From: a virus | UHGV virus genome: UHGV-0296494 | Strand: one strand, 5' to 3' | DNA: 29,054 nucleotides | Shown here: positions 1 through 28,935 of the stretch, one piece after another | Numbering within the stretch: the stretch's first letter is position 1 | How the letters are laid out: every line of letters begins with the position of its first letter | Program-made: the position numbers and the translations under genes | Notes under the pieces: generated by a model | Seen by the model: the letters and a program-made list of their open reading frames with translations, nothing else | Told to the model about the DNA's origin: nothing | Database searches by the model: none

Positions 1-298
1 CCACCAGACTCTGCAGGTCTTCCGCCATCCCGGTGACCATGCCGTGCAGGTTAGAGACCGTCAGTGTCGGACGGGCAGCACTGCCCTTACCGTTCAGTTC
101 AAATCCCGTCCCCTGAATGGGGTATGCCTGATACTGCCGCCCCTGCCAGGTGACCGGTTCACCTTTTTCGTTCTGCTCATTACAGAAGAAATAACGATCT
201 CCGCCGACCTCTGTCAGATCAATTTCCCAGAGCACGATCAGCGCGGATTGCTCCGTTTTAGTGCACTCATTGAGTGTTTCCTGCTGTATATCCTGCAT
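1..298 (-). CDS. Minor tail protein L, N-terminal 99 codons (gene runs off the window start)
   Basis: Minus-strand translation from ATG at 298-296 reads MQDIQQETLNECTKTEQSALIVLWEIDLTEVGGDRYFFCNEQNEKGEPVTWQGRQYQ..., about 85% identical to the lambda-type L at 28001. Start overlaps the stop of the upstream M gene as TGATG. Confidence 0.85.
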   Translation of the reverse strand, partial: MQDIQQETLNECTKTEQSALIVLWEIDLTEVGGDRYFFCNEQNEKGEPVTWQGRQYQAYPIQGTGFELNGKGSAARPTLTVSNLHGMVTGMAEDLQSLV

Positions 299-639
299 CA
301 GTGAGTGACCTCTTCAAAGGTACAGTTAAAATCGGTATACATGGCATTATCCGAAATGCTCCACTCCCTGCAGACAACCCGGACAGTCCTGTTGTGTTTT
401 GGCGGACGCCACAAAAAAGCACGAATCCCGGCATGACGGGATAAAAAACTGTCCAGCGCGGCACGGGAATATTCATCTGTGACACGAAATACCGGTTTAA
501 ACGTTTTCAGATCCGCATTCAGACCACCAGCCCGTCTCTGTTCATATCCGTCACCAAACTTTACCGTAATAACTGATGGCTTTCGTGTCGTCTCCATCCC
601 CTCACGGGGGATCCAGTTAAAAACTTCAGGCTCAGGCAC
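298..639 (-). CDS. Minor tail protein M (lambda gpM family)
   Basis: ORF 298..684(-) contains FNWIPREGMETTRKPSVITVKFGDGYEQRRAGGLNADLKTF, aligning with lambda M (FRWKVKPGMDVASVPSVRKVRFGDGYSQRAPAGLNANLKTY). Start uncertain: GTG at 639 has a GGAGGA SD 7 nt upstream; alternative ATGs at 654 and 597. Confidence 0.75.
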   Translation of the reverse strand: MPEPEVFNWIPREGMETTRKPSVITVKFGDGYEQRRAGGLNADLKTFKPVFRVTDEYSRAALDSFLSRHAGIRAFLWRPPKHNRTVRVVCREWSISDNAMYTDFNCTFEEVTH

Positions 640-3600
640 TGTACAATCCTCCATCCCGACGCGATGACTGCATAATTGACACAACCCTGCTGTCGATCAG
701 ATCCACCAGTCCCCTGGCTGAGCGCGCATCTATCTCGCCATTGCTCCCTTGATTCTGAATGCTGATGTGATACACGGGAGAATAAACAACCCCCCCGCCA
801 CTATTCACATTGCCAATGGCTCTGACCCCAAGAGAGCCGTCCGCTGCCCGTGTCAGTGGCATGATAGCTTCAGGCCCGGCCTCGCCCATCAGCCCGGCAC
901 CTTTCGCAAAAGCAAAATACGTCGGTGTATCCACAATAGTGTTACTGTAAGCACTCAGATTTGCCGATGTGTAAACACCACCTTTTGCGTTTGCCACCGC
1001 CCCCGAAATCCATCCGCCGACCGTACCAAGCCACCCTCCGGCACCGGAGAGTGACTTCAGTCCGTTAACAATGGCCGCATTCATCAGAATTTTTGAAACT
1101 TCCTGGAGAATTGAACTCCCCCAGTTTCTCCAGTCCACAACATTTCCGGCCAGCGCATCGGAAATATTTGATACCAGCCCGTCCATAGTGGAAACGACAG
1201 CATCTGCCGCCTGCGAAGCATAATCGGTGGCACTGTCTGCCCAGTTGGTCAGCCCCTCCTGGAGTCCTGCATTCCAGTTATTACGTAAAGCATCGGCCTT
1301 TGCATAATAATCCTGCTGATCGCTGAGACGCTCTTCCAGATATTTTTTATTCAGTTCTTTCTCCTGTTTCCACAGGGCTTCTTCAATTTCTCCGGCCTGA
1401 TACTGTCTCAGCAGCTCGTTATTTTTCTGCTCAAACTCATGCCGGATACTCCACATTTCCTGGAGTCGTTCACGCATCCGTGAGCCTTCACCATATCCCA
1501 GTAACTGCGCGTCGTTAGACGCCCGGGTACTGGCATTACTGTCCGCCAGGCTGCTTTCATACGCAGCAAGCTGCTCACGAATCTTTTTCTGGTCGATGAG
1601 TGCTGCATTCTGCAAAAGCGTTTTTTTCTGCGCTTCTGACAGGGTTGATAATTCGCCCTGACTGACCTGATATTTCATCTTAGCCAGTTCAGTATTCTGC
1701 CCTGCCAGTGCTATCTGTTCTTTTTGCTGTTTAATCAGCCGTTTATAAATATCTTCTGTTTTTTCCGCTTCGGTCTTTTTATGCGCTTTGGGTTTATTTG
1801 CCTGGTTATTTCGCCAGGCATCCAGTGAGTTATTGATATAATTCTGTCTGGCTGTCTGATACGCCTCTCCCACAAAGCCGAGATCATCCGCAGCATAGCC
1901 CAGTCGGGCACGCTCACGCGCTTCCCCCTTAAGGCGGGACAGAGCCAGTTCGCGCTTGCTGTTATTCAGTGCGGTCTGCTGTTTATCATCCAGGGTTGCC
2001 TGTGGTAGCCGTAACGGTACATTCACCAGCCCCTGTCGCTGCTGAAGTAATTCATTACCAAGCCCAAGAAGGCGATTAAACTCGGTATGCTGCCCATTCA
2101 TGATCAACAGGGACTGATACGCTTTGTTTTGTTCCGCCGCCTGTTGACGGATCAACGCAACCCGCCGCTCCTCCAGCCCGGCAAGCACATCCTGAATGGA
2201 TTGCGCTTTGCCCTGCATTTGTGTGAGACGGGACTGTTCAACTGCCAGTTGATTTGTTGCTTCTGCAAGCCCTTCTGTGACTGTTTTTACCGACGTCATG
2301 TGGTTAATCATAAAACCGTTATCGGTTGTCCAGCCCGGGTTTGCCAGCACATACTGATAGCCAGCAATTTTTTCCTGTAAGGATTTAATCTTACTTTTCT
2401 GCTCGTCAATTAACCTGTTTTGCTCATCAAGTGCCTGCCGCGTCTTTTCCTCATTATCTGACGCTTCAGGAAGCGACATTGCCGACGTTTTCTGGCGAAT
2501 TTCGTCGATTTTTGCGGCATACTGGCGTGCAGATTCTCTGGCCTGCTCCTGATTCTGATACATCGTGTACCAGGCCGCGGCCCCCAGCATGACAAGCCCC
2601 GGCACCCCACCAACCAGTCCCAGTGCTCCACTTAACAGACGACTTCCCACTGACGTGACAGTATTCAGCGTTGTCTGTGCTGCTGTTCTGGCCGCAATAT
2701 TACGGGTAAGTGATGCCTGGGCAGCAGCCAGTTTCGCTTCTGCGGCTGCCTGCCTTTCGGTACCGCGAGCAGCAACAACCGCCTGTTGCGCACGATAAAC
2801 CGCCGCACGCGCCCTGGCTGTTGCTATCTGTGTCCCCCGGAGCTGCGCTTCCGCAAGAGCCACTTCGTTTCTGGCTGCAGTAATTAATCCGGCAGTTGCA
2901 GATCCAGCAGAAGACGCCATATTGCCAAAATATCGGGCTACCCCGACGGCAACCAGAGCACCGGCAGCGGTTGCCACAGTGTCAATATTGCCTGCAATAC
3001 CATTCAGCACACCGGAGAGCGTCTTCGTCACTCCGCTTGCCTCGTTCGCACCACCAACCCAGGCCATAAAGGCGTTTTCAACTTTGGTTGCAGAGGATGA
3101 AACCGTATCAGGCATTGCCGCATATTCATCACGTAATGCCCCAAGCTGACTAATCAGTGCAGGAACAACCTTATCGGCGGTCAACTTTCCGTTATCCGCC
3201 ATGGCCTTCAGATCCTTACGGGCAACCCCCACTCCCGCAGCCAGCGCACGAATAACACGATCGCCGTTCTCATTCACCGAGTTAAACTCTTCACCGCGCA
3301 GCACTCCCTGCGCCAGTGCCTGACTGAACTGCGTGATCACCGAACTGGCTTCTGCTGTACTGGCACCGGATAATTTCAGGCCCGTGGAGATCGCCTCGGT
3401 GACTTTCAGTACCTCCTCAGAACTGTAACCATACTCCCGCATGGAAGCTGCAGAACGGGCAAAAAGGCTGGCGTTATCAGAAAACGCCGTCCCCGTTCTC
3501 TGGCTGATCGCCATTAATTCACGCTGTGATGCCTGAAAATCATCACTGGACTGTGAGGCCTGCTTCAGACGGGCATTTACTGAATTCCACTCATCGGCGA

Positions 3601-3865
3601 AAGAAATAAGATGACCGGTAGCAAAAGCCCCGGCAAATGCCCCCGCCATATTCAGTGCCGAAGATTTAGCTGTATTTATCTGATCCGTCACTTCTGCCAG
3701 TGCACGCCGCATTTCACGGGATGCAGCAGCGGACTGCCGGCCTCCGTTCTGCATGGTACGGTAGTAATCCTGCCCCATACGCGAAGCCCGGGAGATCTCT
3801 GACTGGAATGACCGGGAATTTGCCGAGATTTTAATAATCAGTTCACGTAATGTCGCCACACTCAT
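632..3865 (-). CDS. Tail tape measure protein, 1077 aa
   Basis: Long Ala/Gln-rich coiled-coil ORF in the position between the G/T chaperone and M. N-terminus resembles the TP901-type tape-measure N-domain; C-terminus resembles the lambda H C-terminus. ATG at 3865. Confidence 0.9.
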   Translation of the reverse strand: MSVATLRELIIKISANSRSFQSEISRASRMGQDYYRTMQNGGRQSAAASREMRRALAEVTDQINTAKSSALNMAGAFAGAFATGHLISFADEWNSVNARLKQASQSSDDFQASQRELMAISQRTGTAFSDNASLFARSAASMREYGYSSEEVLKVTEAISTGLKLSGASTAEASSVITQFSQALAQGVLRGEEFNSVNENGDRVIRALAAGVGVARKDLKAMADNGKLTADKVVPALISQLGALRDEYAAMPDTVSSSATKVENAFMAWVGGANEASGVTKTLSGVLNGIAGNIDTVATAAGALVAVGVARYFGNMASSAGSATAGLITAARNEVALAEAQLRGTQIATARARAAVYRAQQAVVAARGTERQAAAEAKLAAAQASLTRNIAARTAAQTTLNTVTSVGSRLLSGALGLVGGVPGLVMLGAAAWYTMYQNQEQARESARQYAAKIDEIRQKTSAMSLPEASDNEEKTRQALDEQNRLIDEQKSKIKSLQEKIAGYQYVLANPGWTTDNGFMINHMTSVKTVTEGLAEATNQLAVEQSRLTQMQGKAQSIQDVLAGLEERRVALIRQQAAEQNKAYQSLLIMNGQHTEFNRLLGLGNELLQQRQGLVNVPLRLPQATLDDKQQTALNNSKRELALSRLKGEARERARLGYAADDLGFVGEAYQTARQNYINNSLDAWRNNQANKPKAHKKTEAEKTEDIYKRLIKQQKEQIALAGQNTELAKMKYQVSQGELSTLSEAQKKTLLQNAALIDQKKIREQLAAYESSLADSNASTRASNDAQLLGYGEGSRMRERLQEMWSIRHEFEQKNNELLRQYQAGEIEEALWKQEKELNKKYLEERLSDQQDYYAKADALRNNWNAGLQEGLTNWADSATDYASQAADAVVSTMDGLVSNISDALAGNVVDWRNWGSSILQEVSKILMNAAIVNGLKSLSGAGGWLGTVGGWISGAVANAKGGVYTSANLSAYSNTIVDTPTYFAFAKGAGLMGEAGPEAIMPLTRAADGSLGVRAIGNVNSGGGVVYSPVYHISIQNQGSNGEIDARSARGLVDLIDSRVVSIMQSSRRDGGLYSA

Positions 3866-3872
3866 TCTCCGG

Positions 3873-3897
3873 ACGAAAAAAAACCGCCGAAGCGGTT
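3873..3897 (-). terminator. Intrinsic-terminator-like hairpin between the T ORF stop and the tape measure start
   Basis: Minus-strand sequence AACCGC-TTCG-GCGGTT followed by a run of 9 T, ending about 10 nt before the tape measure ATG. Confidence 0.45.
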
Positions 3898-3905
3898 ATG
3901 TTGAC

Positions 3906-4594
3906 TCACTGAGACACTATTAAAAGCGCGTTTTCCAGTCCGGCAAATGGATCTGATACGCCTTCTGTCTGCTCCTTCTCCCACTGAAGAAGCGCATCAT
4001 TCAGTGGCACTTTGACCCCCTGCGCACCGTAAACAGCTGAAACAATCTGGGCAGCCCGGATATCAGCCCGTTCGTCCCCCAGCGGGCTGAACCTGTCAAA
4101 TTCTGCCCACATCATGATTTCTGATGCGGACATTTCCCGGCGTAACTCTGACAATGTGCGCCCCATCCTGAGCGCCAGCATCATCAGAAAACGCATCCCC
4201 GGAAGCGCTACTTTTTTTTAACCTCGCCGGCATCACTGATCAGTTCCAGAGACTGCCGAAGAAGCCGCGCATGCACCGGGCCATACACGGCAATCACCTG
4301 TTCACGATCATCCTCTGAAAATACGGGTTGCAGTCCGGTATCACACAGAACATCAATGAACAGTTCAACATCTGCCTCCAGATTTCGGCGGGCGCGCTCC
4401 GCAACGGATAACGGTGTCTCATCATCTTTTGCTTTAACGATCTCCTGCCAGCGCAACCAGGCTTCTGCAGAAGGTTCCCGTAACACAACCGTTGCTCCCT
4501 CCCATTCAGGCACATCAACGGTTTTATGGCGAAACCCCGACATCGTTGCCAGTGCCAGATTACGGATATTTTTAGTCATCACATCCATCCTCAT
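3906..4594 (-). CDS. Tail assembly chaperone G-T fusion made by programmed -1 frameshift at 4211-4217
   Basis: Minus strand reads GTT AAA AAA AAG TAG. A -1 slip on A_AAA_AAG continues as AAA AAA GTA GCG CTT CCG GGG ATG CGT TTT (K K V A L P G M R F), exactly in frame with ORF 3906..4196 (MRFLMMLALRMGRTL...), a gpT-like domain. Confidence 0.6.
4208..4594 (-). CDS. Tail assembly chaperone (gpG-like), zero-frame product
   Basis: 128-aa ORF immediately after the major tail gene, ending GEVKKK-stop at the A AAA AAG slippery site. Start ambiguous: ATG at 4594 (TAATG overlap) or ATG at 4579 with GAGGA upstream. Confidence 0.8.
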   Translation of the reverse strand: MRMDVMTKNIRNLALATMSGFRHKTVDVPEWEGATVVLREPSAEAWLRWQEIVKAKDDETPLSVAERARRNLEADVELFIDVLCDTGLQPVFSEDDREQVIAVYGPVHARLLRQSLELISDAGEVKKK

Positions 4595-5298
4595 TAACTG
4601 ACGGTTACAGTGCAGGAAGTGGAGGTCACTTTGTTAACCGGGCTTGCTGAATCAGAAATCTCGCAGGTATATGCACCCGCATCACCGGATACTGCCGATG
4701 CCTTACTGAACGTTGCCGCCGTCTGTCCGGAAACAGGAGAACCACCTTTCTTCCAGACATAAGAATAAGGCGGCACACCACCCGCAGCCTCAACCGCCAT
4801 TTCAAGTTTCGCTCCGGAAGCAACCCGCAGCGTGCTTTTTAAATCGGCCTTCACTTTCAGCGGCTCTGTCGTCAGCACAGGTTTACCTTTCAGGCGCAAG
4901 GAAAACGTTGCAGCCACAACACCATTGGTTCCTGCAGACCAGGTATGCTGACGCACCTCTGCCATAAAGGTAAATCCGTTGCCTGACGGAAAAATAACTT
5001 TAAAGCCATACGTGGTGTCATTGTCATAGGCACTGCGCAACGCGTTCTGGGCAGCATTCAGATAAAAGTTGCCTGACATGGAAATCTCTGACGCGGCACC
5101 AAGACCGTTAATATTTTCCTGCTCAACAGAACACAGCGTGGTGACATCAATATCCTGCTTTTGTCCTGCGGTAAACTGCACCTCTTTGATTGTACAGCTC
5201 AGGCCAAGATAGCTGGCAGAATCCAGGGTTTCTGCTGTTACCGGTGCAGACGAAATCATAATTTTCGTCAGTTGCGAACGCTCAAAATTAGAGGACAT
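4594..5298 (-). CDS. Major tail protein with C-terminal Ig-like domain
   Basis: 234-aa ORF; ATG at 5298 with GGAGA SD. C-terminal segment (PPYSYVWKKGGSPVSGQTAATFSKASAVSGDAGAYTCEISD) looks Ig-like. Sits directly upstream of the G/GT chaperones as in lambda V. Confidence 0.85.
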   Translation of the reverse strand: MSSNFERSQLTKIMISSAPVTAETLDSASYLGLSCTIKEVQFTAGQKQDIDVTTLCSVEQENINGLGAASEISMSGNFYLNAAQNALRSAYDNDTTYGFKVIFPSGNGFTFMAEVRQHTWSAGTNGVVAATFSLRLKGKPVLTTEPLKVKADLKSTLRVASGAKLEMAVEAAGGVPPYSYVWKKGGSPVSGQTAATFSKASAVSGDAGAYTCEISDSASPVNKVTSTSCTVTVS

Positions 5299-5310
5299 AC
5301 TCGTCTCCTG

Positions 5311-5338
5311 AAAATAAAAAAACCCGCCAGCGGCGGGT
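5311..5338 (-). terminator. Intrinsic-terminator-like hairpin just upstream of the major tail protein gene
   Basis: Minus-strand ACCCGCC-GCT-GGCGGGT followed by TTTTTTTATTTT, then the SD and ATG of the major tail gene. Confidence 0.45.
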
Positions 5339-5358
5339 GGGTAAAATCATTAATGACC

Positions 5359-5703
5359 TCAGGCTATTACCTGAAATTCAAGCGTGGCTCTGCTCAGACG
5401 GGAGTCAGGATCATAACCCTGCGTTTTAGAAATAACGGAGGGTGCCAGTTTTCTTACCGCATCAAGCGCCTGCTCACGAATATTATCTGCGTCATCAGGT
5501 ACTGTCGCCCAGACATCGATCTGCACGGTAATTCTGGATTCAGCCTGCCCATCAAGCACATCAGATGCCGTGTCAGACACCACAGAAAACACCAGCCACG
5601 GCGGAGATACCGCAGGCTTTCCCTCCGTCAGTGGGACCACATAAGGATAAACCTGTCCTCCGGCCAGCTGAGACAACAGGGAATACAGTGTGGCCTCTCT
5701 CAT
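5359..5703 (-). CDS. Tail component, DUF3168-like (putative tail terminator/completion protein)
   Basis: 114-aa ORF; ATG at 5703 overlaps the upstream stop (ATGA). Placed between the head-completion genes and the major tail gene. Confidence 0.65.
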   Translation of the reverse strand: MREATLYSLLSQLAGGQVYPYVVPLTEGKPAVSPPWLVFSVVSDTASDVLDGQAESRITVQIDVWATVPDDADNIREQALDAVRKLAPSVISKTQGYDPDSRLSRATLEFQVIA

Positions 5704-6146
5704 TTACTTAAGACCTCATCAATAGCCTGATTCATTCGCTGTATGGCAATCCGTGCTGCCAGTTCCTCTGTCGTATCGAAAGCCGGGCGAATGAATGGAT
5801 GCGCGGGCATGTTTATCGTTCCCAGCTCCACAAAGCGCCAGTAAAATGCATTTCGGGGATCGCTGGCTTTCATGCTGTTATCACTGTTTCCGGTTCGCAG
5901 GTTCCGTCCGCGAATGTGGACACCCGAGATAATTTCCCCCCGACGCTTTGAACGCTGAGTGAGAACAACCACATTTTTCTTCAGTTTCCCGGTTCGCTCC
6001 GGCGCACGTTCAACAACTGCATCCCGCATAACTTCAGCACCGGCACGGGTGGCATCGCGCAGAACCTTATTGTTTTCTGCCCTGCTGAGCGTCTCCAAAT
6101 CCCGTGCAATATCCGCCAGGCCGGAAAAATCAAGACTGAAATCCAT
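5700..6146 (-). CDS. HK97 gp10-family head-tail joining / tail completion protein
   Basis: 148-aa ORF; ATG at 6146 overlaps the upstream stop (TGATG). Synteny and motif-level resemblance to the HK97 gp10 family. Confidence 0.7.
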   Translation of the reverse strand: MDFSLDFSGLADIARDLETLSRAENNKVLRDATRAGAEVMRDAVVERAPERTGKLKKNVVVLTQRSKRRGEIISGVHIRGRNLRTGNSDNSMKASDPRNAFYWRFVELGTINMPAHPFIRPAFDTTEELAARIAIQRMNQAIDEVLSK

Positions 6147-6484
6147 CACACATTCCCCTTCAGGCTGCAGAGTATTTCAAGCCGGGTAGCGCGTGCATCC
6201 GGTATTGGTGGACCTTCTATACCCAGAATGGCCCCTTTAAATGCACCGGTCAGCACTTTCAGACGTGAAGTCGCTGTCACATCGCGCCGGAATCTCATCC
6301 AGACTCTGACCGTAGCCTGAGCGGTTTCTGCTCCGCCTGAGATTATCTCCCTCCCGCTGATACCCTTAACTTCTGCCCATACGGTAGCTCCCTCCGTCAC
6401 CGTCTCCACCGGATGCCCTGACGGAGAGCGGGCGGTGGTGACATTCAGAATAATTACGCGATCACGTAATCTGCCCGCCTGCAT
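6146..6484 (-). CDS. Head closure / head-tail adaptor protein
   Basis: 112-aa ORF with AGGAGG SD 5 nt upstream of ATG at 6484; begins MQAGRLRDRVIIL, typical of the head-tail joining family. Confidence 0.75.
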   Translation of the reverse strand: MQAGRLRDRVIILNVTTARSPSGHPVETVTEGATVWAEVKGISGREIISGGAETAQATVRVWMRFRRDVTATSRLKVLTGAFKGAILGIEGPPIPDARATRLEILCSLKGNV

Positions 6485-6492
6485 GTCTCCTC

Positions 6493-6810
6493 CTACAAAG
6501 GAATAAAACGATAAGGCTCCAGCAGAGAAGAAAAACCAAACGGGACTGGTGCCTTGCTGACATCTGAGGAATTTTCCCGGTTTTCGTACCAGTGCCCGAC
6601 CAGCAACATGAGCGCCAGCAAAACATCATCAGCTATAAGCACCCCTTCAGGATCACCTTCCGGCACCGTCTCCTCATAAAGCTTACGGTTGATAAAATTT
6701 TCTGCCTTGCGGCAGGCAGCCCGGAAATACAGCATCAGTAACTCATCATCAGTTGCATCATCTGTATCAATACGGCACTGCGCCCTGAGTTTTTCCACTA
6801 TTGCTGCCAT
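6493..6810 (-). CDS. gp6-like head-tail connector protein
   Basis: Trimmed to the ATG at 6810, which has an AGGAG SD; the longer track ORF 6493..6990 overlaps the capsid gene. Product MAAIVEKLRAQCRIDTDDATDDELL... resembles gp6-like connector proteins. Confidence 0.7.
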   Translation of the reverse strand: MAAIVEKLRAQCRIDTDDATDDELLMLYFRAACRKAENFINRKLYEETVPEGDPEGVLIADDVLLALMLLVGHWYENRENSSDVSKAPVPFGFSSLLEPYRFIPL

Positions 6811-6842
6811 CAGAAACTCCTGCCCGCAACACTGTGCGGGCA

Positions 6843-6865
6843 TAAAAAAACCGCGTCGGCGCGGT
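6843..6865 (-). terminator. Intrinsic-terminator-like hairpin directly after the major capsid gene
   Basis: Minus-strand ACCGCG-CCGA-CGCGGT followed by 7 T, about 20 nt after the capsid stop. A second hairpin (GCCCGCA..TGCGGGC, 6822-6841) lies just before the connector SD. Confidence 0.5.
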
Positions 6866-6886
6866 CTGTAACTGAACAACGAGTGG

Positions 6887-8104
6887 TTATTTGCCAGTGA
6901 GCGCCTTGATGGCTGCCACATCTTCCAGCACACAGTCAAAACGATGGAAAGCCAGAAATGCCACCTGATCAAACTCAGCATAACGCTCAACCAGACGTTT
7001 CAGTTCCATATAAGTAACGCGGCGAATGATAAAGCGGTTGAAATCCCCCAGGAAAATGAATTTTTTTCCGGTACCAATCCCGTCAATAGCCTGATCAATA
7101 ACATAAGGGATCCCCAGCACAGTAGCCGGCGTACCGCCTGCAATATCCGGCAGCCATAACGGGCGTTTCTGTCCATCCTCCATCTCTTCAATAGTCTGCA
7201 ATGTGGCATCATTGAATGCCCAGCGGTATTTCGGCCCACCACGATATGCCGGATCAATGGCATGTTTCAGGGCATTCATTTCTTTCCAGGTGAAAGCGGC
7301 AGAGGCTACAGTCTGGATGGTTCCCGTCACCGACGCTGCCAGCCCTTTTGGCTGTAACGGTGATCCCGTTCCGGTCCCCTGAACCAGATATTTTGCCTCT
7401 CCACGACCAATACGCTGGGCAATACGGTTTGCCAGATAAGATTCAATATCCACCCCACTGTCCTGGAGCAGCTCATTGGACACACGAATTATTTTTGATG
7501 ACAGCTTTTTAGCCCCCAGAATAGCGGTCCCGAACGTCACATCCTGTTCCGTTGCGGCTGTATTTTCCGCCAGCAGTTCGCCCTCTTCAGTCGTGCCATC
7601 AGACGTTGACCAGGTGATATCCTGCCCGGTTGATGTGGTCAGAAGTTGCGCCACACTGGCAATCCCGCCATAAGCCTTCATGGTGTCAATGATTTTGTTA
7701 CGCATCTGCGTGGGCACCGTATATCCGCCCTGAGAATCCGTTGTTACACTCTGAGCCCGCAGTTCACGCATCAGATTACGCTCTTCAGCATTCAGTTCTG
7801 CAAATCCGGCACGCAGAAAACGGTTAAATGCCGCAGCGCGCTTCTCTTCCACCGCCTTTTTCCCGTTCTCCGCCTCATTATTCTGGCGCTCTTCCGGCCC
7901 GGACTCATCCACATATGCCTGATCCTGACGGCGCAACTCTTCTTCACGGGCGATTTGCTCATCCAGCGCATCCAGCTCAGCTTTCGCCCTGTTCCACTCT
8001 GCCCGTTGCTCATCAGTCCATGCGTTATCACCAATTTTTTCATGCAGTGCACGCATATCCTTTGCAATGGTGTTTCGTTTTTGCTTCATCTCATGAAGTT
8101 TCAT
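6887..8104 (-). CDS. Major capsid protein, HK97 family, with N-terminal coiled-coil delta (scaffolding) domain
   Basis: 405-aa ORF after the prohead protease. N-terminal ~100 aa are charged and coiled-coil (KAELDALDEQIAREEELRRQDQ). No separate scaffold gene lies between protease and capsid. Confidence 0.9.
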   Translation of the reverse strand: MKLHEMKQKRNTIAKDMRALHEKIGDNAWTDEQRAEWNRAKAELDALDEQIAREEELRRQDQAYVDESGPEERQNNEAENGKKAVEEKRAAAFNRFLRAGFAELNAEERNLMRELRAQSVTTDSQGGYTVPTQMRNKIIDTMKAYGGIASVAQLLTTSTGQDITWSTSDGTTEEGELLAENTAATEQDVTFGTAILGAKKLSSKIIRVSNELLQDSGVDIESYLANRIAQRIGRGEAKYLVQGTGTGSPLQPKGLAASVTGTIQTVASAAFTWKEMNALKHAIDPAYRGGPKYRWAFNDATLQTIEEMEDGQKRPLWLPDIAGGTPATVLGIPYVIDQAIDGIGTGKKFIFLGDFNRFIIRRVTYMELKRLVERYAEFDQVAFLAFHRFDCVLEDVAAIKALTGK

Positions 8105-8118
8105 CGTCAGTAGTATCC

Positions 8119-8718
8119 TTATGCATTAAGAAGGGTCAAAAGACGCTCACGCGCCATTCGTTCGTTAACAGCTTTCTTCAGCGCACCACTCGCCCGCGCT
8201 TCCTGCCAGGCTTTCATTGAGCGGACACCAGAGTCTGCGTCCTGATAGGCCGGATATGTCACCGGGCTGACGTCATACAGACGAGAAATGCGCGTGATTT
8301 CCCGGATAACAATCCCCTCGTCGTCTTCATACCAGCTCTCTCCGTCACGGGCGACACGAAACGCGAACGAGGACTGATTAATGTCACCACGCAACATTGG
8401 AGATAGCACCAGGTCACAAATAGTCGGAGTATCCGGTGCAACAATGTCATAACGTAAACCGCGTTCATCCACCGACAATGACAACGTGCCGGCAGAACTT
8501 CGTCCGAGAATGAAATTAGGATCATGATTAAACAAGCCACGTACATCATCATTCAGTACATCATCAAAAGCCCCCGGCTTGATGATTTCACGAAATCCCC
8601 ACAGAGGTTCTGAACGACTGTTAAATACCGAGCCATAGCCCAGAATGTGGGTCGGGGCATTATCATATTGTTCCGCCCGCACCTCCCCGCTGTAACAGCG
8701 CGTTTCACGGTCATTCAT
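8119..8718 (-). CDS. Prohead maturation protease (HK97 family)
   Basis: 199-aa ORF between portal and capsid genes; ATG at 8718 overlaps the portal stop by 8 nt. Confidence 0.85.
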   Translation of the reverse strand: MNDRETRCYSGEVRAEQYDNAPTHILGYGSVFNSRSEPLWGFREIIKPGAFDDVLNDDVRGLFNHDPNFILGRSSAGTLSLSVDERGLRYDIVAPDTPTICDLVLSPMLRGDINQSSFAFRVARDGESWYEDDEGIVIREITRISRLYDVSPVTYPAYQDADSGVRSMKAWQEARASGALKKAVNERMARERLLTLLNA

Positions 8719-9937
8719 CGTTCTTTTCCTCTTTGCCTTTCGTATCTTTAAAGTTATTCAACGGATTTGCTGCATTTACGCTGACCAGCATTTCATCCAG
8801 ACCGTCAACCGGGTTCATATCCTCAAATGCCCTGGCTTCATTCCGACTCATCCAGCCATCTGTAATGGCAAAGTGATAGAACTGCGCACGCTCCTGTGGG
8901 GTCCCACGGAGCAACCCCGTGAGGTTGAAACGAACGTAATACCCGGCAGCCCGTTCTGTACGGGTAAACAGGCGACGGTTAAGCTCCTGCTCCCAGTTCG
9001 CAACCCAGGGCATCATCGTGTAGCGAACAAACTGAATCGCCTGCTGCGTAATATTCGAAAATGTGGCTTTTTCCAGGTCATTAATCATGTGCGCCGGGAC
9101 ATTAAAAATCCCGGCAATCATCGACCGGTTCAGCTTGGTCATATCAATGATCTGAGCATCCACCGGAGAAACTGTCAGAGCGCGGTAATCCAGTTGCGCA
9201 GGCAGCAACATGGTTTTATTTTCCTGGCTGCGAAGCGCTGTCACCGCCCGCTGCCACATATTCTTGAGCCTGCTCCAACTCTGTTCGTTCAGTTCATTTT
9301 TCACAGAAATAATCCCGGCAGGACGGGCATTACCGTTAAAAAAAGCACTGGTATACTGCTGACCACTCATTCCCATACCAATGGTTTCAGCATGCTGCAT
9401 GATCGGACTCAGTCCCATTTTCTGATTGTTTCCCAGCGCCCTGATATGGATCATGTCGTCCGGACTTACCGCAAATGCACCCTCTTCGTTATACACACCG
9501 TAGGTATGACGCCCTCCGGTGTTAAGTAACGTGGTTTCCCATGGCATACAGCATTCAAGACTGGTAACCTCGCCACGACGATTACGTTTCACCCACGTAT
9601 AACCATTGCCCCACCCCAGCACATGACGCTGCTTCAGTTCCCGCCACTTATAGCTGGTCTGCCAGGCATTCGGTTCATCATGAACGAGCCAGAACAACGG
9701 GTGATCGCGTGCCGGCTGAACATGCTCATTCGTTTTTCGCATCACATGCAGGGGCATCTGAGCCACACTGGATGAAATAACATAAATACAGGCATAGACA
9801 GCAGCCAGCCTCATGGACGTTTCCGGACTGACATACACATCCCGGGCAAAAATATTATCCGTCTCTGCGGCCTCTCCGGTTACCGGAACCGAGGGATTTT
9901 CCAGAGGCTCACTGCGAAACAGAGCATCAAGAAGCAT
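8711..9937 (-). CDS. Portal protein (HK97 family)
   Basis: 408-aa ORF downstream of the large terminase; GAGGAG SD 6 nt upstream of ATG at 9937. Confidence 0.9.
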   Translation of the reverse strand: MLLDALFRSEPLENPSVPVTGEAAETDNIFARDVYVSPETSMRLAAVYACIYVISSSVAQMPLHVMRKTNEHVQPARDHPLFWLVHDEPNAWQTSYKWRELKQRHVLGWGNGYTWVKRNRRGEVTSLECCMPWETTLLNTGGRHTYGVYNEEGAFAVSPDDMIHIRALGNNQKMGLSPIMQHAETIGMGMSGQQYTSAFFNGNARPAGIISVKNELNEQSWSRLKNMWQRAVTALRSQENKTMLLPAQLDYRALTVSPVDAQIIDMTKLNRSMIAGIFNVPAHMINDLEKATFSNITQQAIQFVRYTMMPWVANWEQELNRRLFTRTERAAGYYVRFNLTGLLRGTPQERAQFYHFAITDGWMSRNEARAFEDMNPVDGLDEMLVSVNAANPLNNFKDTKGKEEKNDE

Positions 9938-10067
9938 GTTTTCTCCTCATGGACACCACCAGTGCATAAAGCAGCAACAAACAGCCAGACAGCATCAGAG
10001 ACGCTGGCAGACCTGCATACAGATAAACGCCAGCAGTGAGCAGACCGAAACCGATCAGCCCGGTCAT
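9927..10067 (-). CDS. Hypothetical small hydrophobic protein (46 aa) between large terminase and portal
   Basis: Hand translation of the minus strand gives MTGLIGFGLLTAGVYLYAGLPASLMLSGCLLLLYALVVSMRRKHAS. It fills the 147-nt TerL-portal gap and overlaps the portal start by 11 nt. No clear SD; not in the ORF track because it is under 60 aa. Confidence 0.25.
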   Translation of the reverse strand: MTGLIGFGLLTAGVYLYAGLPASLMLSGCLLLLYALVVSMRRKHAS

Positions 10068-10084
10068 ATCAGTAATAAGCTGTT

Positions 10085-11842
10085 TCACAGAATTAACAGG
10101 TCCTCATCAGGATCAAGCGTGGACAGAAAGTCATTCACGCCCCCGCCATTTACCAGAAAGCGGCTCATGGCTGTAAAAAGCGCAACAGGGCCGTCGATTT
10201 TGGCTTCCGGCGTGGATTTATTCGGGAAGATGTTGTCGTTTTTGTCCGGTTTTACAGTAACGTTAGACATCATCCAGTTCATGACCGGATGATTGCTGTG
10301 ATGGAAACGCCCGGCATAAACCAGTGATTCCGTTTCCTTCATGGCCTCTGACAGATTGCGGACCGTCTGCGGAACCTCCACCAGCGGTATCCCTTCTTCA
10401 GCCAGTGCCAGACTGAACTGCATTGCGCTCCACGGGTCAAATCCCAGTTCCCTGAGGTTTTCACCGCCAATCCATTCCAGTAAGTCACTTTTTATCTGAG
10501 CATGATCGATAACATCACCATCCGTCAGGATGAGCTTATCCATCTCCGCCCACTTCCGGTAAAGTTCTGCCTGCTGCCGCGAGCATCGTTCCAGCCGTCC
10601 TTCCGGAAGCCAGAATTTAAAATCAGCATGAACATGTCCGTTATCGGTTCGCCAGAGTTTTGCCGCCGCACAGATATCAATCTTATGAGCAAGGTCGACG
10701 CCGACCCACATGGGATATGTTTTCAGCTCATGTTGTGGAGCAATGTATTCGCACTTCTCCCACTTAATCATATCCATCCAGGCAGATTCGGCAGTGACCC
10801 ACACATTCATGTGTTTGGTAAAAAAATTCACCCGCGCAGAGACCTGCTCCTTCGCTTTTTTCGCCAGACGACGCAGATCATCCCAGCGTTTACAGATGCC
10901 CAGGCCAGGATTCGCTTTCTGCCAGACCGTTTCATCAAACGGATCATCTCCCTCATCAAGCGTGTAAATGATCGCAAAGTAAGAGTCGTCTTTTACAGCG
11001 CCCTCCACGTCGCTGTTATAGCCTCGCAATACCTTGATGGCGTAATCACGCTGCTCGTAACAAATCCCTTCCTTGTTAAAGCCAGCCGTGGTGATACCAA
11101 ATAACAGGGACTGCAGACGGGCACCGGTTGCCGTTTCCAGAACGTCCCACACGTCGCGGGTTTTATGTGCATGCAGCTCATCAATAATGGCGCAGTGGAT
11201 GTTCAGACCGTCCAGGTTGTTTGCATCCGAGGAAAGCGGTTCAAATTTTGATGCGCTCTGCTCCTGGTAAATCGCCAGCTTGTTGAAATCAAACAACCGC
11301 CCGAGTGTCGACCGGGCTTTTCTGACCATATTTTTGGCGTCTTCAAACACGATTCTGGCCTGGTCACGCGTGGTTGCGGCTGAATACACCTCAGCTCCGC
11401 CTTCACTATCTGCCCCCGTCATATACAGGCCGATACCCGATGACAGGGTTGATTTTGCGTTTTTACGGGCGACTTCGTTGTACGCCGTCCGGAACCGGCG
11501 CACCATCACCGGACGTCCGCTGCCATCGCTGCGCATGACAACTTCCCCGGTTTCTTCATTGACCAGCGGAATGACAAAACCAAAAATATTAATGAGGATA
11601 AATACATGCCAGTCCATCAACTCAATGGGCTGGCCTGCCAGTGCCCCTTTTACATGAGGCACAAATTTGTAGAAATTCAGGATGTGCTGCGCACGGGGTT
11701 CACTGAAATAAATCCCCCGCTTTTCGCCGTACTTCAGATCATCAAGAAAACGCTGGCAGGCCAGGCGGACAAATTCGCCAGCAACAATTTCTCCTGCAAC
11801 AACACGTTCGGCGTAGCGGATCCCGTCAGCCACTTTTGCCAT
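10085..11842 (-). CDS. Terminase large subunit
   Basis: 585-aa ORF; start overlaps the small terminase stop (ATGA). Size and position between TerS and portal. Confidence 0.9.
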   Translation of the reverse strand: MAKVADGIRYAERVVAGEIVAGEFVRLACQRFLDDLKYGEKRGIYFSEPRAQHILNFYKFVPHVKGALAGQPIELMDWHVFILINIFGFVIPLVNEETGEVVMRSDGSGRPVMVRRFRTAYNEVARKNAKSTLSSGIGLYMTGADSEGGAEVYSAATTRDQARIVFEDAKNMVRKARSTLGRLFDFNKLAIYQEQSASKFEPLSSDANNLDGLNIHCAIIDELHAHKTRDVWDVLETATGARLQSLLFGITTAGFNKEGICYEQRDYAIKVLRGYNSDVEGAVKDDSYFAIIYTLDEGDDPFDETVWQKANPGLGICKRWDDLRRLAKKAKEQVSARVNFFTKHMNVWVTAESAWMDMIKWEKCEYIAPQHELKTYPMWVGVDLAHKIDICAAAKLWRTDNGHVHADFKFWLPEGRLERCSRQQAELYRKWAEMDKLILTDGDVIDHAQIKSDLLEWIGGENLRELGFDPWSAMQFSLALAEEGIPLVEVPQTVRNLSEAMKETESLVYAGRFHHSNHPVMNWMMSNVTVKPDKNDNIFPNKSTPEAKIDGPVALFTAMSRFLVNGGGVNDFLSTLDPDEDLLIL

Positions 11843-12324
11843 CAGTCTCTCGCTTTTAAAAGCTCTGCCAGCGGATCAACATTATCCGGTCCGGCGGTAT
11901 TTACTTTTGCCCGGCTTGCCGGTGACATACCAAATTCTGCAAGCATCGCCCGGATCCGCTTCCAGGCATCCGCTTTCATCGCAGCAGCCGGGTGTGCCTT
12001 AATCAGCACATCACCGTTCTGCGTTTTCGAGCGGTAGGTGTACCCCTCAACATCGAGTGTTTCGCAGTGATGCCGGTATTCGGTATAGGCTTCCACCAGT
12101 AGCTCAAGCGCACGCGCATCAAGCTGAGAAATGATCCCTTCCGCATTCAGCTCTTCCGCCATTCGCCTGAACCAGTACTTCCCCTGCGCCCCTAAATGTT
12201 GCGGAATTTTAGGGAGACCTTTTTCATCCTTTTTAGCGGTTTTTTTGAGGTCTTTAACTGGCCGCTTTGAGGGGTTGCCTCGTATCAAATGCAGGCGTGG
12301 CGGGGTTTTCGGGGGTCCAGACAT
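11842..12324 (-). CDS. Terminase small subunit (P27-like)
   Basis: 160-aa ORF immediately upstream of TerL with a basic N-terminus (MSGPPKTPPRLHLIRGNPSKRPVKDLKK); ATG at 12324. Confidence 0.8.
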   Translation of the reverse strand: MSGPPKTPPRLHLIRGNPSKRPVKDLKKTAKKDEKGLPKIPQHLGAQGKYWFRRMAEELNAEGIISQLDARALELLVEAYTEYRHHCETLDVEGYTYRSKTQNGDVLIKAHPAAAMKADAWKRIRAMLAEFGMSPASRAKVNTAGPDNVDPLAELLKARD

Positions 12325-12471
12325 AATCGGTTTTACCTATCAATCATTTAATCACATTCCAAAAAAAAGTTTTCGAACCTGCGGCGATGCGAGGAAAGGT
12401 CAGGCGGCGGTACTGAGCAGCCAGGGTTGCAGAGATTTGGCCTGCCCCTCCCCTACAGATGGGAACTGTTA

Positions 12472-12822
12472 TCAATTGATGCGTTCGCGCGCTGTTTTTG
12501 CTTTATGACAGGGCCAGCACAGACTCTGCAGGTTACTGTCTGCATCCGTGCCACCATGAGCTTTCGGAATGATGTGGTCCACAGTTCTGGCTTCAACGGC
12601 TCTCCCATTGCGCAGGCAGTTCTGACACAGATGATTATCACGCTTCAGTATGCGCGCACGTATGGCATCCCATTTCGAGCCATAGCCACGCTGGTGGCGG
12701 CTCAGTCCGCGTTGATGCTGTACCCATCCTTCGCCACGATGTTTATCGCAGTAACCAGAACTGTCTGTGGTTGTACCTGCACATCCACGCTTACGGCAGG
12801 CGCGTGGGATTCGTGGGGGCAT
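12472..12822 (-). CDS. HNH endonuclease (phage packaging-associated)
   Basis: Contains CxxC...DHIIPKAHGGTDADSNLQSLCWPCH, an HNH motif with zinc-binding cysteine pairs. The track ORF starts at a TTG at 12921; trimmed to ATG 12822, which has a GGAG SD 6 nt upstream. Confidence 0.85.
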   Translation of the reverse strand: MPPRIPRACRKRGCAGTTTDSSGYCDKHRGEGWVQHQRGLSRHQRGYGSKWDAIRARILKRDNHLCQNCLRNGRAVEARTVDHIIPKAHGGTDADSNLQSLCWPCHKAKTARERIN

Positions 12823-12942
12823 ATGTACTCCAATGAAGAAGCCACCGACATAGCCTCCTCCATTCATAGTGAAACTATTTTCATCTACCCAGTAATGAAT
12901 TCTTTGTAGAGTTGTGATCAATACAACTCACTAATGGAGAGG

Positions 12943-12964
12943 CTTGTCCAACACGTTGGACAAG
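12943..12964. repeat. Perfect 22-bp palindrome CTTGTCCAAC-AC-GTTGGACAAG
   Basis: Read directly: 10-bp arms are exact reverse complements. Further GGACA motifs follow at 12983 and 12996. Lies in the divergent junction upstream of the HNH gene. Confidence 0.6.
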
Positions 12965-13044
12965 TTTCCTGTTTGATTTACTGGACACTATAGAAGGACA
13001 GAATGCCTTCATCACTCGAATAACATCAATTAAGGAGGTTCAAC

Positions 13045-13167
13045 ATGTTTCATTCCACAAATCATCAGGCTGTAATTATGGCTGCATCAGCTTGTGCCAC
13101 AGACCTTTTCCGCTTCACTTTGAGCCTGATTCATTTCTACCTGACCGGCTCGCCTCTATCTTTTTAA
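13045..13167 (+). CDS. Hypothetical 40-aa protein with near-consensus ribosome-binding site
   Basis: TAAGGAGGT at 13031-13039, 5 nt before ATG 13045. Translation MFHSTNHQAVIMAASACATDLFRFTLSLIHFYLTGSPLSF-stop. Not in the ORF track (under 60 aa). Confidence 0.3.
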   Translation: MFHSTNHQAVIMAASACATDLFRFTLSLIHFYLTGSPLSF

Positions 13168-13483
13168 TCCCCGCTTTATCCAAATTGCATTGCCAGAATG
13201 CCGACAACAGACTGACATTCAAATCCTGACTACCTCCGATAGGCTGAGCATCCACCTATATAGTTTTAATTTTCATCAATCCATTTAACTATCGTTTAAT
13301 TGTTGTCACATAGGATTCTGCCGTTTTTAACAATGAAGAAACAGGAAGCTGTATTACAGAAAGTGCTACTACTGTATCCCGATGCGATGTATGTAATGTG
13401 AGTCAGATAATGGCACAGGATGTGGTGATGTGGCAGTCTGGAACACAGGATATATTGTCAGAATAAGACCCGTAGGAATAAAA

Positions 13484-20670: not shown

Positions 20671-20693
20671 AGGCCGCCTGTGCGGCTTTTTTT
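20671..20693 (+). terminator. Hairpin plus T-run between D and E
   Basis: AGGCCGC-CTGT-GCGGCTT followed by TTTTTTT, then a second T-run immediately before the E ATG at 20707. Confidence 0.45.
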
Positions 20694-21734: not shown

Positions 21735-21752
21735 ATGGCCCTTCGGGGCCAT
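21735..21752 (+). terminator. Stem-loop immediately after major capsid gene E
   Basis: ATGGCCC-TTCG-GGGCCAT with UUCG tetraloop followed by TGTTTCTCT. Could be a weak terminator or an mRNA-stabilising 3' hairpin. Confidence 0.35.
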
Positions 21753-28703: not shown

Positions 28704-28935
28704 ATGACACAGACAGAATCAGCGATTCTGGCGCACGCCCGGCGATGTGCGCCAGCGGAGTCGTGTGGCTTCGTGGTGAGAACGCCGAAGGGGGAAAGAT
28801 ATTTTCCCTGCGTGAATATCTCCGGTGAGCCGGAGGCGTATTTCCGGATGTCGCCGGAGGACTGGCTGCGGGCAGAGATGCAGGGTGAGATTGTGGCGCT
28901 GGTCCACAGCCACCCCGGTGGTCTGCCCTGGCTGA
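28704..28935 (+). pseudogene. K: Tail tip assembly protein K, 5' portion only (codons 1-77 counted from ATG 28704); reading frame is disrupted at an inversion junction
   Basis: MTQTESAILAHARRCAPAESCGFVV...EIVALVHSHPGGLPWL matches lambda K up to 28935, after which sequence becomes the reverse complement of a later K segment. The lambda-annotated K start corresponds to ATG 28848. Confidence 0.8.

What the first reader, a model, noticed from the sequence alone, without database searches (positions are those of the whole stretch)
3873..6865. Three strong intrinsic-terminator-like hairpins inside the module 1 late operon
On the transcribed (minus) strand, GC-rich stem-loops each followed by 7-9 T occur after the major capsid gene (6843-6865), immediately upstream of the major tail gene (5311-5338), and between the T ORF and the tape measure gene (3873-3897). 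In a Q-antiterminated late operon these would be read through during lytic growth but would block read-through in a lysogen. They could also act as 3' stability or processing elements that set the ratios of capsid, tail tube and tape measure. The one just before the major tail gene is unexpected, since that gene needs high expression.
Basis: seen in the sequence. Interest (0 to 1): 0.45.

Follow-up and report, generated by a model that had tools for sequence, protein, structure and literature searches.

The report
Conserved terminators inside prophage late operon
Three hairpin-plus-U-tract transcription terminators fill the only three gaps between the head and tail genes of an HK97-like E. coli prophage; they are real and strongly conserved, but putative terminators at these junctions were already annotated in the GenBank record of phage HK97, so the finding is ordinary.

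Summary
On the minus strand there are three canonical intrinsic-terminator motifs, each a GC stem with a stable short loop followed by T7-8. They lie 20 nt after the major capsid gene (6867-6844), just before the major tail gene (5338-5316), and between T and the tape-measure gene (3897-3876). A strict motif scan finds 4 sites in the whole window against 0.18 expected, all on the coding strand. The three sites fill the only intergenic gaps longer than 14 nt in this stretch of the operon.

The sites are conserved. 48 of 48 distinct relatives have the hairpin and T-tract before the major tail gene. About 42 of 45 have one before the tape-measure gene. 30 of 46 have one after the capsid gene (43 of 46 have some GC-rich hairpin there), and stems covary.

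This is not new. The HK97 GenBank record already annotates "putative terminator" at these junctions, and the window's tail genes are 51-80% identical to HK97's. The identical prophage in strain EC958 has a Q antiterminator, a pR'-like promoter and a terminator just downstream.

Most likely these are conditional terminators. They stop ordinary RNA polymerase and are read through by Q-modified polymerase. The T|tape-measure site is also the known moron slot. Interest is low.

The parts
6844..6867 (-). T1: intrinsic-terminator motif 20 nt after the major capsid gene stop. The stem is AGACCGCG/CGCGGTTT, the loop is CCGA, and U7 lies at 6850-6844.
   Evidence: -11.2 kcal/mol. In 22 Enterobacterales relatives the CCGC-loop-GCGG-T7 core is nearly invariant (A1). 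A hairpin with a T-rich tail follows the capsid gene in 30 of 46 distinct relatives, against 3.2% of random windows.
6821..6842 (-). H2: second hairpin TGCCCGCA/CAGTGT/TGCGGGCA with no T-tract. It lies between T1's U-tract and the AGGAG (6821-6817) of the head-tail connector gene (ATG at 6810).
   Evidence: -17.7 kcal/mol; T1 and H2 together -29.7, z -5.2. It is conserved in 22 loci, with 96% of cells paired and 3 pairs showing compensatory double changes.
5316..5338 (-). T2: intrinsic-terminator motif ACCCGCC/GCT/GGCGGGT followed by U7. It lies 21 nt after the gp17-like tail-completion gene stop (5361-5359) and 6 nt before the AGGAG of the major tail gene (ATG at 5298).
   Evidence: about -12 kcal/mol. 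It is the positional orthologue of the HK97 'putative terminator' at 6692-6719. It is present in 48 of 48 distinct relatives. All 6 consensus pairs show double changes.
3876..3897 (-). T3: intrinsic-terminator motif AACCGC/TTCG/GCGGTT followed by U8. It lies 8 nt after the T ORF stop (3908-3906) and 5 nt before the GGAG of the tape-measure gene (ATG at 3865).
   Evidence: -8.5 kcal/mol, with a C(UUCG)G tetraloop. The blastn alignment to HK97 starts inside the hairpin (window 3887 = HK97 8410), within HK97's putative terminator at 8398-8422. A hairpin precedes the tape-measure gene in about 42 of 45 distinct relatives. Moron genes are inserted just upstream of the identical hairpin in L098 and L142.
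6887..8104 (-). Major capsid gene (HK97-fold, PF05065), upstream of T1.
4594..5298 (-). Major tail tube gene with a C-terminal Ig domain, downstream of T2. It is 73% identical to HK97 gp12.
632..3865 (-). Tape-measure gene, downstream of T3. It is 55% identical to HK97 H.

Best explanation
T1, T2 and T3 are genuine Rho-independent terminators built into the late operon of an HK97-like lambdoid prophage. They act conditionally.

How they stop ordinary polymerase. RNA polymerase that has not been modified by the phage Q protein transcribes the GC hairpin, pauses on the U7-8 tract and releases. Such polymerase could start from spurious promoters, from moron promoters, or by read-in during lysogeny. 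Silent head and tail genes therefore stay off, and any moron transcript placed in the T|tape-measure slot ends at T3.

How they are bypassed. After induction, Q loads onto polymerase at pR', roughly 11 kb upstream in the intact prophage. The modified enzyme reads through all of them, so one long late mRNA is made.

Likely secondary effects. Residual termination, together with the 3' hairpins left after decay, probably steps mRNA abundance down after the capsid gene and after the tail-tube/chaperone block.

Shown here: the motifs, their statistics, their conservation and covariation, their orthology to sites annotated in HK97, and the presence of Q, a pR'-like promoter and a terminator in the same prophage.

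Inferred: actual termination, read-through by Q-modified polymerase, and any effect on stoichiometry.
For: Motif and statistics:
- Complete terminator motifs with perfect U7-8 tracts and stable short loops (CCGA, GCU and UUCG here; GAAA, GUAA, GAGA and UUCG in relatives).
- 4 strict sites against 0.175 expected, all on the coding strand.
- Hairpin energies of -8.5 to -12.1 kcal/mol. These bracket the prophage's own terminator after Q (-10.7) and approach the trp attenuator hairpin (-13.5; sequence from memory).

Conservation:
- T2 is in 48 of 48 distinct relatives, with stems changing as CCGCC/GGCGG, CCACC/GGTGG and GCTGC/GCAGC.
- T3 is in about 42 of 45.
- A post-capsid hairpin with a T-rich tail is in 30 of 46, against 3% of random windows.
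- The uninterrupted T-tract is conserved along with the stem. A terminator needs this; a simple exonuclease barrier does not.

Precedent and context:
- GenBank AF069529 (HK97) annotates putative terminators at gp5|gp6, gp11|gp12 and gp15|H, and the flanking genes are orthologous.
- In EC958, 7 of 7 strict terminators face the late direction.
- Q (PF03589), the promoter-like TTGATT-16-TGgTAAATT and a terminator lie just downstream of Q.
- A 113-aa moron uses the identical T3 hairpin in L098 and L142. PMC3594210 places the HK97 gp15 moron at this same junction.
- PMC8022706 notes intra-late-operon terminators in P22-like phages.
Against: - No transcript data were available, so termination efficiency and Q read-through are untested for this phage.
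- The stems are short. T1 in most relatives has only 4-5 bp. Energy z-scores against shuffles are modest.
- T2 co-segregates with the downstream tail-gene family rather than with the upstream gp17 family. It always lies 5-10 nt from that gene's Shine-Dalgarno sequence. This pattern would also fit a 5'-leader role in translation or stability.
- If Q read-through is nearly complete, the terminators cannot by themselves set lytic stoichiometry.
- The window as given lacks Q and pR'.
Confidence: 0.68

Rival explanations
1. The elements are mainly post-transcriptional. The hairpins would act as 3'-end barriers or processing landmarks that divide the long late mRNA into differently stable segments (terS-to-capsid; connectors; tail tube with G/T; tape measure onward). 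This would set protein ratios, with little real termination.
For: - The sites follow the two most abundant structural genes or blocks.
- T1 is followed by H2. A single-stranded U7 between two hairpins would be a plausible RNase E target. Cleavage would leave a 3' hairpin on the capsid mRNA and a 5' hairpin on the downstream RNA.
- High-GC relatives keep the post-capsid hairpin but often lack the T-tract: 43 of 46 have a hairpin, but only 30 of 46 have a T-rich tail.
Against: - In Enterobacterales and Pasteurellaceae relatives the uninterrupted T6-8 tract is conserved as tightly as the stem. An exonuclease barrier does not need it.
- The stems are short for a decay barrier.
- No RNase sites can be predicted here.
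Confidence: 0.15
2. The hairpin-U-tract is primarily a 5'-leader cassette of the downstream gene. In the read-through mRNA the stem would insulate the ribosome-binding site, and the U-rich tract would serve as an S1/standby platform that boosts translation. This would explain why one sits right before the highly expressed tail-tube gene.
For: - T2 and T3 always lie 2-10 nt upstream of the Shine-Dalgarno sequence.
- T2 travels with the tail-gene family across several different upstream gene ends. It is absent where gp17 homologues precede another tail-gene family.
- T3 stays attached to the tape-measure gene when morons are inserted upstream.
Against: - The same cassette precedes the low-copy tape-measure gene.
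- At T1 the U-tract is separated from the Shine-Dalgarno sequence by H2.
- Compact phage genomes would place a terminator next to the following ribosome-binding site anyway.
- No translation data were available.
Confidence: 0.12
3. The elements are evolutionary relics with no present function. They would be terminators left behind by lost morons, or junction sequences retained at mosaic module boundaries.
For: - The T|tape-measure junction is a known moron slot (HK97 gp15, PMC3594210; L098 and L142; L002 and L041).
- The sites coincide with the boundaries between head, neck and tail modules.
Against: - The elements are near-universal in relatives that carry no moron.
- Compensatory stem changes are present.
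- The T-tracts are invariant across genera whose flanking proteins are only 40-79% identical. This indicates purifying selection.
Confidence: 0.04
4. The matches are chance hairpins with no biological meaning.
For: The individual hairpin energies are only 1.3-1.9 sd below shuffled sequence.
Against: - 4 strict motifs against 0.175 expected.
- All are on the coding strand and in the only intergenic gaps.
- They are conserved in dozens of diverged phages.
Confidence: 0.01

Closest known systems
Putative terminators annotated inside the phage HK97 late operon (GenBank AF069529; Juhala et al. 2000)
   Same: The gene junctions match: major head gene|gp6, gp11|major tail gp12, and before tape-measure H. 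The flanking genes gp7, gp10, gp11, gp12, gp13/14 and H are 51-80% identical to the window's. The architecture is the same: hairpin, T-tract, Shine-Dalgarno sequence, ATG.
   Different: The window's capsid gene belongs to another HK97-fold lineage (24% identity). T1 is therefore analogous rather than orthologous, and it carries the extra H2 hairpin. HK97 has the gp15 moron upstream of its H terminator, whereas the window has an empty slot. HK97 also annotates a hairpin after gp12, which the window lacks.
Lambda-type late operon under Q antitermination (pR', tR', terminator-resistant polymerase)
   Same: The intact prophage has a Q protein (PF03589), a promoter-like site and a terminator directly after Q, and further co-oriented terminators before the lysis genes and around lom. 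Lambda itself has a hairpin plus T7 between D and E, present in the window's module 2 at 20671-20693.
   Different: Lambda's structural genes carry only one strict intra-operon terminator upstream of lom. The HK97-type tail region carries several. Q function was not tested here, and Q lies outside the window.
Intra-late-operon terminator after the procapsid module in P22-like phages (phage L, PMC8022706)
   Same: A predicted Rho-independent terminator lies within a single-promoter late operon at the end of the capsid-assembly genes. The authors propose partial termination or blocking of non-antiterminated transcription.
   Different: The phage lineage is unrelated (podovirus), and the site is single. 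That paper states that the roles of such terminators are 'not known'.
Moron elements (promoter, gene, terminator), e.g. HK97 gp15
   Same: T3 lies at the exact junction (tail chaperone|tape measure) where the first described moron sits. The identical hairpin ends a 113-aa moron ORF in L098 and L142.
   Different: The window has no ORF or promoter between the T ORF and T3, so T3 is not part of a moron here. Because T3 is present in most moron-free relatives, it looks like a resident junction element that morons borrow.
Terminators bypassed by a dedicated antiterminator in the HK97-like Caulobacter GTA cluster (PMC11150451)
   Same: It is a structural-gene cluster with internal terminators that need a processive antiterminator for full expression.
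   Different: The antiterminator (GafZ) and the host are different. Those terminators were mapped experimentally and lie downstream of the first gene of the cluster.

Membership tests
Rho-independent (intrinsic) terminator | GC-rich stem (about 4-12 bp) with a short loop (3-8 nt) | tested here: met
   T1 has 8 pairs (5 G-C) with loop CCGA. T2 has 7 pairs (6 G-C) with loop GCU. T3 has 6 pairs (4 G-C) with loop UUCG.
Rho-independent (intrinsic) terminator | Uninterrupted U-tract (at least 6) starting within 0-2 nt of the stem | tested here: met
   The tracts are U7, U7 and U8, directly abutting or overlapping the stem base. They are conserved in relatives.
Rho-independent (intrinsic) terminator | Lies on the transcribed strand in non-coding DNA | tested here: met
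   All three are on the minus (coding) strand, in the 76-, 60- and 46-nt gaps between annotated genes.
Rho-independent (intrinsic) terminator | Releases RNA polymerase, so transcript 3' ends fall in the U-tract | not testable with these tools
   No transcriptome, Term-seq or in vitro data were available.
HK97-type late-operon terminators (AF069529 annotation) | Same gene junction flanked by orthologous genes | tested here: met
   T2 and T3 meet this: gp11/gp12 and T/H orthologues are 51-73% identical, and the nucleotide alignment enters the T3 hairpin. T1 has the same position, but the capsid gene is only 24% identical, so it is analogous only.
Q-antiterminated lambdoid late operon | Q gene followed by a late promoter and a terminator upstream of the lysis and structural genes | tested here: inconclusive
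   This is met in the 100%-identical prophage of EC958: Q is PF03589 with E 1.6e-54, followed by TTGATT-16-TGgTAAATT and a terminator at L001 34017-33998. It is absent from the window itself, which breaks off at 13335. Q activity was not tested.
Moron | Own promoter, extra ORF and terminator inserted between conserved phage genes | tested here: not met
   Only 8 nt separate the T ORF stop from T3, with no ORF and no promoter-like site. Morons are present at this slot in L098, L142 and HK97.
Curated RNA families (Rfam 15) | Match at or above the family's gathering score | tested here: not met
   The best matches were isrK at 19 bits (gathering score 50) and Trp_leader at 19.1 bits (gathering score 41), both at T2. 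These are terminator-like resemblance only.

The most novel reading that the evidence does not exclude
The hairpin-U-tract units may be dual-use junction cassettes that belong to the downstream gene. They would act as terminators for unmodified polymerase. In the Q-read-through late mRNA they would also act as a fixed-distance insulating stem plus a U-rich S1/standby platform that sets translation of the next gene.

Before the tail-tube gene the U-tract would be open. After the capsid gene, H2 separates it from the connector gene's ribosome-binding site.

Morons would then insert upstream of these resident cassettes and borrow their terminators, rather than bringing their own.
Probability: 0.2. 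Interest if true: 0.4.

Novelty: already known. Interest (0 to 1): 0.17.

Why it matters
The finding matters little in itself. It confirms that HK97-type late operons carry internal terminators that only antiterminated polymerase can pass, which has been annotated since the HK97 genome.

Its modest value is comparative:
- The cassettes before the tail-tube and tape-measure genes are near-universal. They covary and stay attached to the downstream gene.
- The T|tape-measure terminator is present without any moron. This suggests that morons reuse resident terminators.
- A conserved second hairpin follows the post-capsid terminator.

These points give concrete, cheap targets for Term-seq and reporter experiments on how phages tune structural-protein ratios from a single transcript. 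PMC8022706 describes the roles of such intra-operon terminators as 'not known'.

Tried and rejected
- **Rfam** (E-value mode, 3500-7200): only sub-threshold hits (isrK, Trp_leader). Rejected as generic terminator resemblance.
- **Prophage sRNA idea:** I read the EHEC Hfq-CRAC, StxS and HnrS papers. Those sRNAs lie at the pR' moron site or elsewhere in late regions. Nothing links them to these hairpins, and there is no promoter-like site upstream of T1-T3.
- **Re-initiation promoters after each terminator:** only a weak 9/12 match at 3856-3828, inside the tape-measure gene. Not pursued.
- **The ATG directly after the T-tracts as an alternative start:** it is in frame with the connector gene in the window but out of frame in relatives (sequences). 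Rejected.
- **Alternative T3 fold that sequesters the tape-measure Shine-Dalgarno sequence** (-10.4 against -8.5 kcal/mol): no comparable complementarity was seen on reading the HK97 and relatives' sequences. Treated as incidental.
- **Covariation test on T1 within Enterobacterales:** the CCGC/GCGG core is nearly invariant. This argues neither for nor against structure. Support for T1 comes from non-homologous hairpins at the same position in more distant relatives.
- **First MTP-based locus scan:** it returned only relatives at 97-100% identity, which were uninformative apart from T-tract length variation of about 6-9 bases and the two moron-bearing loci. I repeated it with a diverged query.
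- **Papers not held:** PMC4424060 and PMC3718152. The Juhala et al. 2000 text itself was not read; only its GenBank record was.
- **Two paper searches failed on syntax**.


Full report
**What the window is.** Window positions 3-13335 are 100% identical to a prophage of E. coli ST131 strain EC958. On the minus strand they carry an HK97-like late operon. The genes, in order, are:
- terS 11842-12324
- terL 10085-11842
- portal 8711-9937
- protease 8119-8718
- major capsid 6887-8104
- gp6-like connector 6493-6810
- head closure 6146-6484
- gp10-like 5700-6146
- gp17-like tail completion 5359-5703
- major tail tube 4594-5298
- chaperones G and T, 4208-4579 and 3906-4184
- tape measure 632-3865

Pfam confirms these identities. 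From 13336 onward the window continues head-to-head into a lambda-like late operon on the plus strand.

**Checking the observation.**
- T1 is AGACCGCG-CCGA-CGCGGTTT with U7 at 6850-6844. It begins 20 nt after the capsid stop codon.
- T2 is ACCCGCC-GCT-GGCGGGT with U7 at 5322-5316. It lies 6 nt upstream of the AGGAG of the tail-tube gene.
- T3 is AACCGC-TTCG-GCGGTT with U8 at 3883-3876. It lies 5 nt upstream of the GGAG of the tape-measure gene.

Predicted hairpin energies are -11.2, about -12 and -8.5 kcal/mol. These are only 1.3-1.9 sd better than shuffled sequence, so the stems alone are unremarkable.

The complete motif is not unremarkable. A strict rule finds four sites in the whole window on both strands, against 0.175 expected; the maximum was 1 in 200 dinucleotide shuffles. 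All four lie on the locally coding strand. The three sites fill the only intergenic gaps longer than 14 nt between terS and the tail-tip genes (76, 60 and 46 nt). None has an upstream A-tract, so they are one-directional.

It lies between T1's U-tract and the connector gene's Shine-Dalgarno sequence. T1 and H2 together fold at -29.7 kcal/mol, z = -5.2.

**Comparative evidence for T1.** A scan of one genome per species with the capsid protein gave 62 loci, from Enterobacterales to Pasteurellaceae, Marinobacter, Aeromonas and beyond.
- Among 46 distinct post-capsid regions, 30 carry a hairpin with a T-rich tail and 43 carry some GC-rich hairpin.
- The corresponding rates in random 70-nt windows of the same loci are 3.2% and 19%.
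- In 22 Enterobacterales loci the CCGC-loop-GCGG-T7 core is almost invariant, although the flanking proteins are only 38-79% identical.
- H2 is kept in those loci with three pairs showing compensatory double changes and 96% of cells paired.

**Comparative evidence for T2.** Every locus with a homologous tail-tube gene has a hairpin and T-tract upstream. This holds for 48 of 48 distinct sequences from a viral-contig scan, and also for HK97, L002, L013, L014, L041 and L048.
- Stems change as CCGCC/GGCGG, CCACC/GGTGG and GCTGC/GCAGC.
- The consensus fold has double changes at all six pairs.
- gp17 homologues that precede a different tail-tube family (Pasteurellaceae) have no hairpin. The cassette therefore goes with the downstream gene.

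**Comparative evidence for T3.** About 42 of 45 distinct tape-measure upstream regions have the hairpin; 39 also pass the T-rich-tail rule. A C(UUCG)G loop is common among them. Upstream of the hairpin lies either the T ORF stop codon directly, as in the window, or one of several unrelated inserted genes.
- In L098 and L142 a 113-aa zinc-ribbon membrane protein ORF ends just before the identical T3 hairpin.
- In 80 near-identical E. coli prophages the stems are almost unchanged, and the T-tract varies only in length, about 6-9 bases.

**Comparison with what is known.** The GenBank record of phage HK97 (AF069529) already carries 'putative terminator' features inside its late operon at gp5|gp6, gp11|gp12 and gp15|H, among others.
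- The window's closure, gp10, gp17, tail-tube, G, T and tape-measure proteins are 51-80% identical to HK97 gp7, gp10, gp11, gp12, gp13/14 and H.
- The nucleotide alignment with HK97 begins inside the T3 hairpin.
- T2 and T3 are therefore positional orthologues of annotated features. T1 is an analogue, because the capsid gene is only 24% identical.
- HK97's terminator before H follows the gp15 moron. [quoted passage not shown]
- PMC8022706 notes a terminator at the end of the procapsid module inside the late operon of phage L. [quoted passage not shown]
- SPP1 late gene clusters are likewise delimited by stem-loop terminators.
- The Caulobacter GTA cluster needs an antiterminator to pass its internal terminators.
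- Lambda itself has a hairpin plus T7 between D and E. That is the fourth strict site of the window, at 20671-20693.
- Rfam holds no family for these elements.

**Mechanism.** In EC958 the same prophage encodes a Q antiterminator (PF03589, E 1.6e-54). This is followed by a promoter-like TTGATT-16-TGgTAAATT and, about 55-60 nt further on, a terminator. All seven strict terminators in that 43.5-kb locus face the late direction, and none face the other way. These seven are the one after Q, one before the holin gene, T1, T2, T3, one at J|lom and one after lom.

The best-supported reading is the classical one. These are real intrinsic terminators that stop unmodified polymerase and are overridden by Q-modified polymerase. 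The conserved uninterrupted U-tract argues for termination itself rather than only an RNA-stability role. T3 also serves as the terminator of whatever moron occupies its slot. Actual termination, read-through and any stoichiometric effect are inferred, not shown.

**What remains slightly unusual.**
- T2 and T3 are attached to the downstream gene at a nearly fixed, very short distance from its Shine-Dalgarno sequence.
- T3 is present in most moron-free relatives, so morons seem to borrow a resident terminator.
- After the capsid gene the U-tract is separated from the next ribosome-binding site by a conserved hairpin.

A dual-use reading would account for these points: a terminator for unmodified polymerase that also acts as a leader, standby or insulating element in the read-through mRNA. 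I recall a precedent in the E. coli rnd leader (from memory). I give this reading about 0.2 probability. Compactness alone could explain the spacing.

**Verdict.** The 'unexpected' remark is not supported. The feature is already known from HK97 and related lambdoid phages, and interest is low.

Noticed in passing
window 6821-6842 (-): A second hairpin, H2 (TGCCCGCA/CAGTGT/TGCGGGCA, -17.7 kcal/mol, no T-tract), lies directly after T1's U7 and abuts the connector gene's AGGAG. It is conserved in 22 Enterobacterales prophages, with three pairs showing compensatory double changes. Its function is unknown; candidates are a 5' stabiliser, translation damping or a processing landmark.
   Followed up: partly
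window 20671-20693 (+) and 21735-21752 (+): The lambda-like module 2 carries lambda's own D|E hairpin plus T7 (identical to lambda 6099-6122), just upstream of the E-like capsid gene. It also carries the E|FI hairpin ATGGCCC-TTCG-GGGCCAT, which has no proper T-tract. Lambda therefore has its own intra-late-operon terminator motif next to its capsid gene.
   Followed up: partly
window 13335/13336 and about 28930-28935: The junction between module 1 (100% identical to EC958) and module 2 (100% identical to strain B36 and others) is abrupt, with only a 1-bp overlap. None of 5426 complete E. coli genomes spans it. The last 125 bases switch orientation again relative to EC958. The window may come from a rearranged or mis-joined assembly. 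As given, module 1 is detached from its Q and pR'.
   Followed up: partly
window 4212-4219 (A8 on the minus strand): An A8 run (GGTTAAAAAAAAGTAG) lies at the end of the G chaperone gene. This is the expected slippery site for the -1 frameshift that makes the G-T fusion.
   Followed up: no
window 12941-12966: A perfect palindrome, CTTGTCCAAC-GT-GTTGGACAAG, lies upstream of the HNH endonuclease gene, near where the packaging genes start. The terminator scan flagged it, but it has no T-tract. It could be a protein-binding site.
   Followed up: no
window 3865-3892 (-): In a 41-nt context the lowest-energy fold pairs T3's loop and 3' arm (CUUCGGCGG) with the tape-measure Shine-Dalgarno region (CGUCCGGAG), at -10.4 against -8.5 kcal/mol for the terminator hairpin. 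I saw no comparable complementarity in HK97 or other relatives, so it is probably incidental.
   Followed up: partly
L098 and L142 (about 4350-4790); L002 10192-10754; L041 10121-10529: Different extra genes are inserted between the T ORF and the tape-measure terminator. They include a 113-aa zinc-ribbon membrane protein in two E. coli prophages and a small signal-peptide protein in Symbiopectobacterium (L041). This is the same slot as the HK97 gp15 superinfection-exclusion moron.
   Followed up: partly
L001 33998-34091 (-): Directly after the Q stop codon in EC958 there is a promoter-like TTGATT-16-TGgTAAATT. About 55-60 nt downstream lies the terminator AACCCGC-CGCCGA-GCGGGTT-T6, followed by two tRNA genes. 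This would give an unusually short pR' leader RNA.
   Followed up: no
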